Source: Octopus sinensis
Lineage: Eukaryota
DNA: 64,000 nucleotides
Assembly (NCBI RefSeq): GCF_006345805.1
Contig: NC_043013.1
Coordinates: 35,898,001 to 35,962,000 of the forward strand
Reading direction: 5' to 3'
Shown: in pieces, positions 10,770 to 13,700 of the stretch
Numbering within the stretch: the stretch's first letter is position 1
Layout: each line of letters begins with the position of its first letter
Program-made: the position numbers

Positions 10770-13700
10770 GGTGGTGGTGGTGGTGGTGGTGGTGGCGGTG
10801 GTGGAATGATGGTAGAGGTTACACTGGGTGTTATGTTAGTGTTGCCGTTGTTGTTGATAGTGGTAGTGGTGGTGGTGGTGGTGGTGGTGGTGATGGTGGT
10901 GGTGGTATTGGTGGGTGGGGGTGTTTCGGGGGGTTTGTGGTGTTGATAGTATTGGAGATAGTGGAGGTGGTGGTAATGGTGCTAATGGTAGTAGTGGTGT
11001 TGGTGGTGGTAGAGATTGGGTGGTCGCTGTCATAATGGTCAGGGTGGTGTATGTGGCTGTAATGGTGGTGGTGGTGGTGGAGGCGGCGGCAGGCAGTGGT
11101 GACGTTGTTCTTGTTGGTGTTGGTGTTGGTGGTAGTGGTGGTTGTGGTAGAGGAGGAGGTGGTGAAGCTGGCAGTGGTTGATGTCGTGTGGGCATCTTTG
11201 TCATCTTTGTCAATCATTGTGGTTGTAATGGCATTGTTGTTGCTGTTGCCGTTGTTGTTGTTGTTGGTGGTGGTGGTGGTAATGGTGGTGGCAGTCATCA
11301 CCATCATTGCCATTGGCATCATCATCATCATCATCAATGTCATTGTTATTATCATCATAGTAGTGGTAGTTGTGGTTGAGCTTGTGGCTATGGTAGTGAG
11401 GTTTGCGGCTGTAATGGCAGTAGTAGTAGTGGTAGTGGTGGTGGTGGTGTGGTGGTGGTGGTAGTGGTGGTGCTTATTTCTGATTCAGGAAAATTTGGTA
11501 GAGGCAACAGCATTAGTGCATCATAATATAAACCATTCTAGCATAATATAAAGTAGTATATTACAGTATAGAGCAGCACCCCTACCCCTTGACCCCCACC
11601 CTCCCCACCACAAATATAGACTAATTTTTGCAGCAAATACAGGAGTGGCTGTGTGGTAAGTAGCTTGCTTACCAACCACATGGTTCTGGGTTCAGTCCCA
11701 CTGTGTGGCACCTTGGGCAAGTGTCTTCTACTATGAAAGAAGCTCATCGTATATATGTATGTATATATATATGTGTGTGTATATGTTTGTGTGTCTGTGT
11801 TTGTCTCCGCAACATCACTTGACAACCGATGCTGGTGTGAACAAGTAAAAGAGTAAAATAAGAGTAAAGAGTAATGCCCTAGCGGTTTGTCAAAGGAGAC
11901 CAATAGAATAAGTACTAGGCTTACAAAGAATAAGTCCTGGGGTCGATTTGTTCGACTAAAGGCGGTGCTCCAGCATGGCCCCTGTCAAATGACTGAAACA
12001 AGTAAAAGAGTAAAAGAATGCATTTGAGAGAGTAACCTGAATGCTAAAGGGTTAAACTTGTTAAAATATTATTCTAAATGGTTTATAAGATCGGAAATCT
12101 AATTTTGTAGTGTTCATGGTATCATCATGAGAATCTGATCAACGAATTTGCAATTAAAATAAAGTAGAAAACACTTTAGATATAAAGTAGAAGTATATAA
12201 GAAAAAACATTATTTTCCAGCACACCATTATTTTTGTGTCATTTTGAAAAATAAAAATTTATTTTATGGTTTGTTATTGTTTATATTTTCAATTACTTGT
12301 ATTTAGGGGCACCAAAATCTTTTAATTGCATAGGATCTCTATGGGTCTTAATCCGGTCCTGGGTTTAACCATTGAGCAAAATAAGTATGTGCTTAGGACA
12401 TTAAGAGAAGGGCCATCAACACAGAAATGGTAAATGGTCTACAGTACAAAAGAAATCTCTTTAAACTTACTAAAATAATATTTGAAGTGATTTATATGAT
12501 CAGAAGTATAATTTTAAAGTGTCCATGATGTCATTGTGAGGATCTGATCAGAGATTTTCCAATTAAAAAAAGTAGAAAACTTTTCAAATATAAATAAAGT
12601 GGAAGTATACAAAAATAAGTATTTTCCATCAGTTTTGTTTCAGTTTGAGAAATAAAAACATTATTGTTTTGTATTTATGCCCACGGGCATATGGCATAGT
12701 GGTTAAGAGCACGGGCTACTAACCCCAAGATTCTGAATTTGATTCCAGGCAGTGACTTGAATAATAGTAATAATAATAATAATAATAGCATCGAAAAATA
12801 CCTTAGGAATGAGAACCCAGGTTCGAAATTTCCCCAAGATACCTGATGAAGGTTGGAGGGTATATCAGCTGAAACATTGTGTTAACAACAAACAAGATGA
12901 GGACAAATATCCATCAAATGTAAATAATGTAAAAAAATTATTTTATGGTTTATTATTGTTTATATTTTGAATTATATATCTATGGGAGCACCAAAATCTT
13001 TTAAGAGCTTAGGGCCGCTATGGGTCTTAATCCAACTCTGAGTGTGATGTAGAAGTGTTGTAGTTGTGTATAGTGTTGATTATGGTGGCCCCATACCCCT
13101 ATGCATATGTAATTCAAAATGTAAGTTTTCTCCGACGTTTTTTTAATTGCCACATGAAATAAAGTACCTTGCTTAAGAACACAATGTGTTCCCTAGTGTC
13201 CATGGCATTATGATCATGTGGTGAACACCCTTAGCTTCATGCCATGTGTCTTCACTATTGAATGTGATGGTTGGATATTTGAGATGTTCTCTGATCCTTT
13301 TACTGCGGAAATCAGACATATTCACTCAAAATTTCATTATCCTTAATTACCAAAAGCAGTTTTTATTTACCAATCTATTTTTTGTTGAGGAATGTTATGT
13401 TTGAAACTATTTCCTCTTTCTTTTTTTTGTGATATGTCAAGTTTATTGAGGTAATGTCACTTACAGTAAATCCCAATTCTGTTTTGCTTTTTTTTTTTTT
13501 GGTTTTGGTAGATATTTTAACATCATTCCTGGAATAAACATGAAGTTTAATTTCACAGTTAAAGGGCTAATATTTCTAGAAAGAAGGGAGACACTATATT
13601 TAGTTGATGTCACTTTAAGCCAGTTGTTCCGAATCCAGATTATTTGGTAGTTTATGTAAAGTCAGAAGTGGTTATCACAAGAATTATCTCAAGAATGGTA

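What the first reader, a model, noticed from the sequence alone, without database searches (positions are those of the whole stretch)
12653..12942. tRNA-promoter head fused to a hammerhead module inside one target-site duplication: candidate hammerhead SINE
Seen: a tRNA-like Pol III head (A box 12692-12702, anticodon-like arm, degenerate B box), an (AAT)n linker, then a module with a type I hammerhead fold (12838-12883). The unit interrupts a MITE whose uninterrupted twin lies at about 12250, and is bracketed by a 12/13-identical direct repeat, so head and ribozyme appear to have inserted together. The same module recurs at 55273-55537 in an inverted, tailed arrangement. Established: minimal hammerheads mark Penelope-like element (PLE) pseudo-LTRs, and SINEs normally borrow LINE tails. 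Inference: a Pol III-driven SINE mobilised by a PLE, whose self-cleavage could trim or circularise its RNA. Caveat: all three copies here read ACAU in stem III (possibly CpG-decayed ACGU), so these copies may be inactive.
Basis: partly seen in the sequence, partly recalled or inferred. Interest (0 to 1): 0.85.

Follow-up and report, generated by a model that had tools for sequence, protein, structure and literature searches.

The report
Hammerhead-like retroelement joined to SINE head
A short mobile element, probably in an octopus genome, joins a tRNA-type SINE head to a tail module carrying a minimal hammerhead-ribozyme-like motif of the kind seen in Penelope-like retrotransposons; the pieces are real, but one copy cannot show that they travel together, and hammerhead-bearing SINE-like elements are already known from blood flukes.

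Summary
The described anatomy is in the sequence. The SINE head at 12685-12759 has an exact A box and is homologous to the head of a full tRNA-SINE at 14206. An (AAT)n linker follows at 12760-12788, then a 141-143 nt module whose 12838-12883 segment fits a minimal type I hammerhead. That fit comprises the full core, a 5-bp helix I, a 6-bp helix II and an unpaired base after A9; 0 of 300 shuffled windows match it. An adjacent paralogue lacks the whole unit.

The module recurs at 55308-55537 as a head-to-head pair of copies with a roughly 30-nt extension. This is the arrangement published for Penelope-like element (PLE) insertions.

Several points weaken the claim:
- No Rfam hammerhead or tRNA model hits, and ARAGORN finds nothing.
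- The flank repeat is low-complexity and not significant alone.
- The host is not shown to be a MITE.
- ACAU looks like the family state, not decay.
- The head occurs only once in the window, so family status is untested.
- Copy B begins exactly at the linker/module boundary, which allows a one-off chimera.

Schistosome Sm-alpha/Sj-alpha are earlier tRNA-like SINE-like elements with hammerheads. Verdict: real, partly supported, moderate interest.

The parts
12040..12380 (+). Uninterrupted paralogue ('twin') of the interrupted host sequence. The empty site lies at about 12263-12268.
   Evidence: Collinear with 12461-12658 plus 12932-13033 at 75% and 84% identity. There are no other copies in the window and no terminal inverted repeats.
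12653..12665 (+). Left copy of the candidate target-site duplication (TAAAAACATTATT). With gaps it may extend to 12678.
   Evidence: It matches 12930-12942 at 12 of 13. It is low-complexity: 110 of 990 random control places score as well.
12666..12684 (+). A 19-nt stretch between the repeat and the head. It is either a 5' extension of the insertion or diverged target sequence. 12676-12682 is the exact reverse complement of 12685-12691.
   Evidence: Read directly.
12685..12759 (+). tRNA-derived SINE head: A box 12692-12702, degenerate B box 12735-12746, 43-nt spacing.
   Evidence: Exact A box match. Homology to the head of the SINE at 14206-14295, with 0 of 1000 shuffles reaching the score and nhmmer E 0.026. 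No cloverleaf found by ARAGORN or Rfam.
12760..12788 (+). (AAT)n linker, possibly the former 3' tail of a simple SINE.
   Evidence: Three other (AAT)n arrays examined in the window have no SINE head upstream.
12789..12929 (+). Module copy A, the 3' module. It ends ...GTAAATAATG(T).
   Evidence: 93.7% identical to copy B over 143 nt and 94.2% to copy C over 86 nt. These are the only three copies found by nhmmer.
12838..12883 (+). Minimal type I hammerhead-like motif. The predicted cleavage site is between 12878 and 12879.
   Evidence: Descriptor match with helix I of 5 bp and helix II of 6 bp. 0 of 300 shuffles match. Helices I and II appear in the minimum-free-energy fold. No Rfam hammerhead hit.
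12930..12942 (+). Right copy of the candidate target-site duplication. The first TTTT downstream of the unit starts at 12941.
55254..55279 (+). Left flank repeat of the second locus (candidate target-site duplication).
   Evidence: Aligns with 55535-55561. 135 of 990 random controls score as well.
55280..55312 (-). An extension of about 30 nt beyond the 3' end of copy B. It begins with extra copies of the terminal 9-mer.
   Evidence: It matches the 30-40 bp 'tail' described for PLE insertions.
55308..55455 (-). Module copy B, inverted. It starts at the same base as the module in copy A and keeps the complete hammerhead-like motif (CUGAUGA starts at 55401 on the minus strand).
55452..55537 (+). 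Module copy C, 5'-truncated inside CUGAUGA (it lacks C3 and U4). It joins head-to-head to copy B through a 4-nt overlap (55452-55455).
55535..55561 (+). Right flank repeat of the second locus.

Best explanation
The stretch from 12666/12680 to 12929/12937 is one retrotransposed insertion. I take it to be a copy of a composite SINE with three parts:
- a tRNA-derived head carrying an internal Pol III promoter;
- an (AAT)n linker that looks like the old tail of a simple SINE;
- a 3' module of about 143 nt taken from the end (pseudo-LTR region) of a Penelope-like element (PLE).

Proposed mechanism. Pol III starts at the head, runs through the module (no TTTT inside) and stops at the first TTTT in the flank at 12941. 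A PLE reverse transcriptase with its GIY-YIG nuclease recognises the module's 3' end and primes on a staggered nick. It often stops early or primes from both DNA ends, which gives 5'-truncated and head-to-head copies such as B and C.

The minimal hammerhead-like motif is inherited with the PLE end. In these three copies it is probably not an active ribozyme.

Shown here: the parts, their order, the absence of the unit from a paralogous site, the hammerhead-like fold, and the inverted tailed pair.

Inferred: Pol III transcription, PLE mobilisation, and that head plus module form a family.
For: - Head. Exact A box, correct 43-nt A-B spacing, and homology to a complete SINE's head with 0 of 1000 shuffles reaching the score.
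- Single unit. A paralogue lacks all of it, and one 12 of 13 repeat brackets it.
- No TTTT between 12685 and 12931; the first is at 12941.
- Hammerhead-like motif. Complete core, helix I of 5 bp and helix II of 6 bp in 2 of 2 copies that span it; 0 of 300 shuffles match.
[quoted passage not shown] Copies A and B have G-U at a CpG site there.
- Substitutions between copies keep pairs: helix I pair 3 is U-G in A and C-G in B; helix II pair 3 is U-G and C-G; pair 1 is G-U and G-C.
- PLE-style integration. B and C are head-to-head, each with its 3' end outward, with a 4-nt overlap, an extension of about 30 nt and a candidate flank repeat of about 26 nt. Published PLE traits are 5' truncation, an adjacent inverted 5'-truncated copy, a 30-40 bp tail, variable TSD length, and dual min-HHRs on opposite strands.
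- A module-only RNA has no evident promoter, whereas the head supplies one.
- Host context. The one named relative of a transposase remnant in the window is from Octopus bimaculoides. Octopus genomes are reported to hold 11.6% SINEs and recently active PLEs.
Against: - The head occurs once and the module three times in the window, so co-occurrence is 1 of 1 informative copies only.
- Copy B starts at exactly the base where the module starts after the linker in copy A. This suggests the module is a unit of its own and that copy A is a chimera or nested insertion.
- The flank repeats are not significant on their own: 110 of 990 and 135 of 990 controls score as well.
- No PLE ORF was found. Pfam gave 0 families for 10 of the 178 ORFs of 90 aa or more.
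- No Rfam hammerhead hit at E<=10.
- Fold energies are not better than shuffles: z +0.40 and -1.0.
- Absence of TTTT is unremarkable: 1737 of 4978 random windows of this length also lack it.
- The B box is degenerate in this copy.
- ACAU in 3 of 3 copies breaks the helix III palindrome.
- The predicted dimer pairs through UCAGCUGA, not through helix III.
Confidence: 0.45

Rival explanations
1. Copy A is a one-off chimera or nested insertion, not a SINE family. In this reading the module is a self-standing short PLE-dependent element of about 143 nt.

Two routes are possible:
- The enzyme copied a full-length module RNA and then switched template onto the (UAA)n tail of an unrelated simple tRNA-SINE RNA, giving one event and one target-site duplication.
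- The module inserted later into the microsatellite tail of a resident SINE.
For: - The 5' end of copy B coincides with the linker/module boundary of copy A to within the 4-nt overlap.
- (AAT)n looks like a SINE or LINE tail.
- PLEs are reported to prefer microsatellite targets and to retrotranspose other RNAs in trans.
- The head is seen only once in the window.
Against: - No separate duplication flanks the module alone.
- A nested insertion would have to land exactly at the end of the (AAT)n run.
- A module-only RNA has no evident promoter: only a B-box-like match with 2 mismatches at 12820-12830, and no A box.
- In a SINE-rich genome, family copies should far outnumber chimeras. This last point is general knowledge, not tested here.
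Confidence: 0.35
2. The module is the 3' tail of an ordinary LINE (for example the CR1, RTE or Dong/R4 clades, which are abundant in octopus) or of its SINE. The hammerhead-like motif is a chance resemblance with no link to PLEs.
For: - No Rfam hammerhead hit.
- Helix III is not palindromic.
- Fold energy is not exceptional.
- The 3' end shows short tandem 9-mers in copy B, as some LINE tails do; that comparison is recalled, not tested.
- LINEs of these clades are reported as active in octopus.
Against: - The full core with both helices is not expected by chance: 0 of 300 shuffles.
- It carries the unpaired base after A9 and the G10.1-C11.1 pair typical of PLE min-HHRs.
- A head-to-head pair in which both copies keep the 3' end, with a 30-nt extension, is a PLE trait. 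It is not the pattern of LINE twin priming, where the inverted part comes from a more 5' region; that description of twin priming is established knowledge, not tested here.
Confidence: 0.1
3. The element is a working ribozyme element of the retrozyme type. Its RNA self-cleaves, as a dimer, and is circularised, and the circle is the template for new copies.
For: - The catalytic core is intact in copies A and B.
- PLE-type and animal retrozyme hammerheads act as dimers and give circular RNAs in other animals.
- A 2026 preprint links non-LTR retrozymes to PLE pseudo-LTRs.
Against: - There is no tandem array at either locus, so no transcript would carry two cleavage sites in the same orientation.
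- ACAU in 3 of 3 copies prevents the palindromic helix III.
- The predicted dimer does not form helix III.
- 0 of 2 truncated copies begin at the cleavage site.
- A cut would separate the head from the 3' end.
Confidence: 0.07

Closest known systems
Sm-alpha / Sj-alpha SINE-like retrotransposons of Schistosoma (Ferbeyre et al. 1998; Laha et al. 2000). I saw them only as cited in PMC6765202, PMC2770079 and PMC8490949; the original papers are not held.
   Same: They are short non-autonomous retroelements with a Pol III-type, tRNA-like 5' part followed by a type I hammerhead. tRNAscan,342 of them tRNA-Gln-like. The review describes 'a promoter followed by a hammerhead'.
   Different: - Their hammerhead is canonical and cleaves in vitro, and the elements often lie in tandem. 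Here the motif is the minimal PLE type with a defective helix III, the copies are dispersed or inverted, and activity is untested.
- The host phylum differs.
- Sequence similarity was not tested because no Sm-alpha sequence was at hand.
Minimal hammerheads (min-HHR) in the pseudo-LTRs of Penelope-like elements (Cervera and de la Pena 2014, PMC4209133; sections 5 and 9 and selected passages read).
   Same: - Core CUGANGA...GAAA...UH.
- Short helix I (4-5 bp) and long helix II.
- An unpaired base between positions 9 and 10.1.
- G10.1-C11.1.
- Mostly single dispersed copies from truncated elements, with some pairs on opposite strands 100-700 bp apart.
   Different: - Positions 15.2 and 16.2 are C and A, so they are not palindromic.
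- No flanking RT/GIY-YIG ORF is seen.
- A tRNA-type head lies upstream in one copy.
Animal non-LTR retrozymes (Cervera and de la Pena 2020, PMC7229834; Li, Clavereau and Pollet 2026 preprint 10.64898/2026.07.22.740005; abstracts and passages read).
   Same: They are short non-autonomous elements with type I hammerheads, proposed to depend on PLEs. The preprint compares the relation to that of SINEs and LINEs.
   Different: Retrozymes are tandem repeats of about 170-400 bp that are expressed as circular RNAs. Here there is no tandem array, and there is a Pol III head. Neither paper mentions Pol III; the preprint does not mention tRNA at all, and the 2020 paper mentions it only in other senses such as tRNA ligase.
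PLE insertion architecture (Craig et al. 2021, PMC8557442; Goubert et al. 2022, PMC8969392; passages read).
   Same: 5' truncation, an adjacent inverted 5'-truncated copy, a 30-40 bp tail at one end, and target-site duplications of variable length.
   Different: The unit here is about 143-265 nt with no ORF. The partner element is unknown.

Membership tests
Hammerhead ribozyme, PLE-type minimal form | Conserved core: C3-U4-G5-A6-N7-G8-A9, G12-A13-A14, A15.1, U16.1, H17 | tested here: met
   Present in copies A (12843-12878) and B. Copy C lacks C3 and U4 through 5' truncation. H17 is U.
Hammerhead ribozyme, PLE-type minimal form | Helix I of 4-5 bp closing a type I topology | tested here: met
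   5 bp in copies A and B, including G-U pairs. One substitution between A and B keeps the pair (U-G to C-G).
Hammerhead ribozyme, PLE-type minimal form | [quoted passage not shown] | tested here: met
   6 bp, with unpaired A12850. Copy C has G-C at 10.1/11.1; copies A and B have G-U at a CpG site. The published range for schistosome families is 7-8 bp, and 6 bp in D. virilis.
Hammerhead ribozyme, PLE-type minimal form | Helix III absent or palindromic (15.2-16.2 pair), allowing a dimer | tested here: not met
   ACAU in 3 of 3 copies. Copy C keeps 3 of 3 other CpGs. The predicted dimer does not use this site.
Hammerhead ribozyme, PLE-type minimal form | Match to a curated hammerhead covariance model | tested here: not met
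   No Rfam hammerhead family hit at gathering score or at E<=10. From my own knowledge, those models include a helix III hairpin that minimal forms lack.
Hammerhead ribozyme, PLE-type minimal form | Self-cleavage | not testable with these tools
   Needs transcription of monomer and dimer RNA in vitro.
Hammerhead ribozyme, PLE-type minimal form | Location in the pseudo-LTR of an element encoding RT and GIY-YIG | not testable with these tools
   Pfam gave no family for 10 ORFs of the window. No eukaryotic genome collection was available.
tRNA-derived SINE (SINE2) | Internal Pol III promoter: A box and B box at tRNA spacing | tested here: inconclusive
   The A box is exact. The B box has 3 mismatches in 9 specified positions, including the C of TTCGA, at the correct 43-nt spacing.
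tRNA-derived SINE (SINE2) | 5' part related to tRNA or to other tRNA-SINE heads | tested here: met
   Aligns with the head of the SINE at 14206-14295, with 0 of 1000 shuffles reaching the score. No cloverleaf by ARAGORN or Rfam.
tRNA-derived SINE (SINE2) | Many dispersed copies with the same head plus body, each with its own target-site duplication | tested here: inconclusive
   One head and three modules in 64 kb. The two other module copies are truncated at or after the module start, so they say nothing about the head. The genome was not searchable.
tRNA-derived SINE (SINE2) | 3' end shared with an autonomous partner | not testable with these tools
   No partner is present in the window.
PLE-mediated insertion | 5' truncation with an adjacent inverted 5'-truncated copy and a 30-40 bp tail at one end | tested here: met
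   The B/C pair at 55308-55537 has a 4-nt overlap and an extension of about 30 nt at 55280-55312, compared.
PLE-mediated insertion | Target-site duplication of variable length | tested here: inconclusive
   There are candidates of 13-26 nt at both loci, but 110 of 990 and 135 of 990 random controls score as well.
Animal non-LTR retrozyme | Head-to-tail tandem repeats each carrying a type I hammerhead | tested here: not met
   Tandem Repeats Finder lists no array at 12789-12931 or 55308-55537 among the 150 of 166 rows shown. The copies are single or inverted.

The most novel reading that the evidence does not exclude
An octopod genome holds a true Pol III-driven tRNA-SINE family that parasitises Penelope-like elements through a pseudo-LTR-derived 3' module carrying a minimal hammerhead. 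This would be a SINE-PLE partnership outside flatworms. It would tie SINEs, PLE hammerheads and animal retrozymes into one series, and it would offer a small natural substrate for studying what a PLE reverse transcriptase recognises.
Probability: 0.3. Interest if true: 0.6.

Novelty: new member of a known kind. Interest (0 to 1): 0.4.

Why it matters
It remains unclear how Penelope-like elements choose and copy their RNA, and what their hammerheads are for. A short non-coding element copied by that machinery would mark the minimal recognised 3' end and would be easy to test, especially if it carries its own Pol III promoter. It would also extend the hammerhead-bearing SINE type, so far described in schistosomes, to molluscs. 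If the unit is only a one-off chimera, it still documents template switching or nested insertion by a PLE-type enzyme, which is a minor result.

Tried and rejected
Searches and tests that gave nothing or were not significant:
- Rfam scans: the whole window at gathering score gave only a tRNA hit at 14057-14128. Scans at E<=10 of 12600-13000, 55200-55600 and 57850-58050 gave no hammerhead or tRNA family at the loci.
- ARAGORN on the window and on the head at thresholds down to 70% found nothing.
- Fold energies of the 55-nt hammerhead region and of the whole module are no better than shuffles.
- Cofolding two copies gave a dimer through the palindrome UCAGCUGA, not helix III.
- The absence of TTTT in the unit is not unusual (1737 of 4978 random windows).
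- The flank repeats are not significant on their own.
- nhmmer with a profile of the three module copies found no further copy.
- Pfam on the 10 highest-complexity ORFs gave 0 families. The other ORFs were not scanned.
- A first protein search for taxon context found nothing. The second gave one named hit, from Octopus bimaculoides, which is weak evidence for the host.
- A literature search for a 21-nt stretch of the motif returned 0 papers.
- An exact scan of bacterial and archaeal genome contigs for the same stretch returned 0 hits, as expected.

Readings I rejected:
- The 'MITE' label for the host.
- The core matches at 63234/63240, which lie in a near-perfect palindrome with no helices I or II.
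- An alternative long helix III hairpin after GAAA, because it would put A rather than U at position 16.1 (read).
- Other (AAT)n arrays (three examined) have no SINE head upstream.

Not in print, as far as my searches reach:
- Searches listed no paper whose title or abstract describes a tRNA-headed SINE with a PLE tail in molluscs.
- The octopus repeat paper PMC13282606 has 0 occurrences of 'hammerhead' or 'ribozyme'.

Unchecked:
Genome-wide co-occurrence and the PLE partner therefore stayed untested.
The min-HHR family tables of PMC4209133, file S1 of PMC8557442 and the repeat library of PMC13282606 could already contain this family.

Other remarks:
- I took no contig for human and made no spliced model.
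- The N run at 49429-49528 was left alone.
- One slip: note 3 gives 12675-12681 with a 3-nt spacer. The correct figures are 12676-12682 with a 2-nt spacer.
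Full report
What is there. The window is AT-rich and dense in microsatellites and SINE copies. The only named relative of a transposase remnant at 50130-50522 is from Octopus bimaculoides. That fits my recollection of octopus SINE sequences, but it does not prove the host.

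It consists of a tRNA-type head, an (AAT)n run at 12760-12788, and a module of about 143 nt at 12789-12929/12931. The module recurs at 55308-55455 on the minus strand (copy B) and at 55452-55537 on the plus strand (copy C). Identities are A-B 134/143, A-C 81/86 and B-C 77/86. A profile search found no further copy of the module, and the head occurs once.

The head. TGGCATAGTGG at 12692-12702 matches the A-box consensus exactly. The window has only one other match, inside a complete tRNA-derived SINE at 14206-14533. The head aligns with that SINE's head over about 72 nt, through the A box, the anticodon-arm region, the B-box region and a shared GTGAC end. The score is 39, against 15.3 +/- 2.9 for shuffles, and 0 of 1000 shuffles reach it. 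The B-box-like GAATTTGATTCC lies 43 nt after the A box, as in tRNA genes. It has three mismatches, one of them in the TTCGA core. ARAGORN and the Rfam tRNA model do not recognise the head. It is therefore a SINE-type head, not a tRNA gene, and this copy's promoter is probably damaged.

The hammerhead-like motif. Read as a type I hammerhead, 12838-12883 has these parts:
- helix I, GAUAC with GUGUU, 5 bp;
- CUGAUGA;
- an unpaired A;
- helix II, GGUUGG with UCAGCU, 6 bp, with an 8-nt loop;
- GAAA, then C, A, U16.1 and U17, with the cut expected after 12878.

A descriptor scan of both strands found five core matches. Only copies A and B had helices of this length. Of 300 dinucleotide-preserving shuffles of the window, none had helix I >=5 together with helix II >=6, and one had both >=4. 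I chose these thresholds after seeing the motif. The minimum-free-energy fold of the 55-nt RNA contains both helices, but its energy is ordinary.

Cervera and de la Pena name several marks of PLE minimal hammerheads that their search did not impose: a nucleotide between 9 and 10.1, a G10.1-C11.1 pair, and palindromic 15.2-16.2. The first is present. The second is present in copy C and reads G-U in copies A and B, at a CpG site. The third fails, because all three copies read ACAU. Copy C has kept all three other CpGs that the alignment reveals. I therefore think ACAU is the family's state and not decay. Differences between copies keep pairs (U-G to C-G in helices I and II, G-U to G-C in helix II), but with three copies this is thin. 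No Rfam hammerhead model matches. A second core match at 57937, with a palindromic ACGU, is also missed. From my own knowledge, those models expect a helix III hairpin.

Insertion. An adjacent paralogue at 12040-12380 is collinear with 12461-12658 and 12932-13033 and lacks everything between. The unit therefore arrived after a local duplication. The host is not shown to be a MITE: there are only these two copies and no terminal inverted repeats. The bracketing repeat is 12 of 13 and can be stretched with gaps to about 26 nt. It is A/T-rich, and 110 of 990 random places give as good a match. The left boundary therefore lies somewhere between 12666 and 12680. In that stretch, 12676-12682 is the exact reverse complement of the first seven bases of the head. 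This may mark a snap-back at the cDNA end.

The second locus. Copies B and C lie head-to-head, each with its 3' end outward, and overlap by 4 nt. Copy B carries about 30 extra nucleotides beyond the module's end, beginning with repeats of the terminal 9-mer. The flanks share a repeat of about 26 nt, though 135 of 990 controls score as well.

Published descriptions of PLE insertions list exactly these traits. They are a high degree of 5' truncation, an inverted 5'-truncated copy immediately adjacent, a 30-40 bp tail at one end, and target duplications of variable length. Minimal hammerheads have also been reported paired on opposite strands. LINE twin priming, from established knowledge, inverts a more 5' segment and does not duplicate the 3' end. 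Together with the hammerhead-like motif, this is my main reason to link the module to a PLE-type enzyme. No RT or GIY-YIG ORF was found in the window, though only 10 ORFs were scanned.

Family or accident. Copy B begins at the very base where the module begins after the linker in copy A. There are two ways to read this. In the first, the module is a unit of its own. Copy A would then be a chimera, made by a template switch onto the (UAA)n tail of a simple SINE RNA, or a nested insertion into a microsatellite tail. In the second, the unit is a composite SINE, and reverse transcription tends to end or switch at the linker.

For the composite SINE:
- one flank repeat brackets the whole unit;
- nothing brackets the module alone;
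- the head gives the module a promoter that it otherwise lacks;
- SINE-rich genomes contain far more family copies than chimeras.

For the chimera: the boundary coincidence and the single head. I put these readings at 0.45 and 0.35. Only the genome can decide between them.

Function of the motif. One hammerhead in one transcript makes one cut. It cannot release a circle, and the cut would part the promoter head from the 3' end that the enzyme needs. There are no tandem arrays, neither of the two truncated copies starts at the cut site, helix III is defective, and the predicted dimer avoids it. I therefore regard the motif in these copies as inherited baggage from a PLE end. PLE minimal hammerheads cleave poorly even when intact, and their role is still debated.

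What is known. SINE-like elements with a Pol III-type tRNA-like part and a hammerhead were described in schistosomes in 1998 and 2000. I saw this through reviews and a genome annotation paper; the originals are not held. Animal non-LTR retrozymes are proposed to be non-autonomous derivatives of PLEs. My searches found no paper describing a tRNA-headed SINE with a PLE tail in molluscs. The recent octopus repeat annotation does not mention hammerheads. Supplements that might list this family were closed. At best, then, this is a new member of a known kind.

Verdict. Interest is 0.4. That would rise to about 0.6 if a genome-wide count shows a real SINE family with a PLE partner.

Noticed in passing
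window 14057-14128 (+) and 14206-14533 (+): A tRNA-like sequence reaches the Rfam tRNA gathering score (30.6 bits) but is not called by ARAGORN. It lies about 80 nt upstream of a complete tRNA-derived SINE with an A box at 14218, a B-box-like site at 14262 and an A-rich tail.
   Followed up: partly
window 57929-57975 (+): A second minimal hammerhead-like core, CUGAAGA...GAAACGUU, has a palindromic ACGU but only 3-bp helices I and II. It sits in a fragment of about 90 nt between (GAT)n and (AC)n. It may be a truncated PLE end of another family. No Rfam hit.
   Followed up: partly
window 63180-63300: A near-perfect palindrome with arms of about 56 nt (97.5% identity), flanked by (TA)n. It contains CUGAUGA and GAAA by chance, with no helices. 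It could be a hairpin-forming element or a small foldback transposon.
   Followed up: partly
window 12676-12691: A 7-nt exact inverted repeat (TATGCCC, AC, GGGCATA) lies right at the 5' edge of the SINE head. It may be a snap-back junction from second-strand synthesis.
   Followed up: no
window 45782-46456 and 54270-54644: Tandem repeats of 169 bp (4 copies, 86% matches) and 184 bp (2 copies, 94%). The descriptor scan found no hammerhead core in either.
   Followed up: partly
window 50130-50600 (+): A frameshifted transposase remnant is 75% identical over 96% of the queried part to a 373-aa protein with helix-turn-helix Pfam domains. The only named relative is from Octopus bimaculoides.
   Followed up: partly
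window-wide, e.g. 3465, 6587, 8272, 9576, 11689, 23235, 24146, 29259, 29729, 31216, 41201, 43108, 61301, 62538: Fourteen copies of the B-box-like word GGTTCAGTCCC mark an abundant SINE family. 61122-61463 and 62359-62700 give identical ORF translations, which points to a recent segmental duplication of about 1.2 kb.
   Followed up: no
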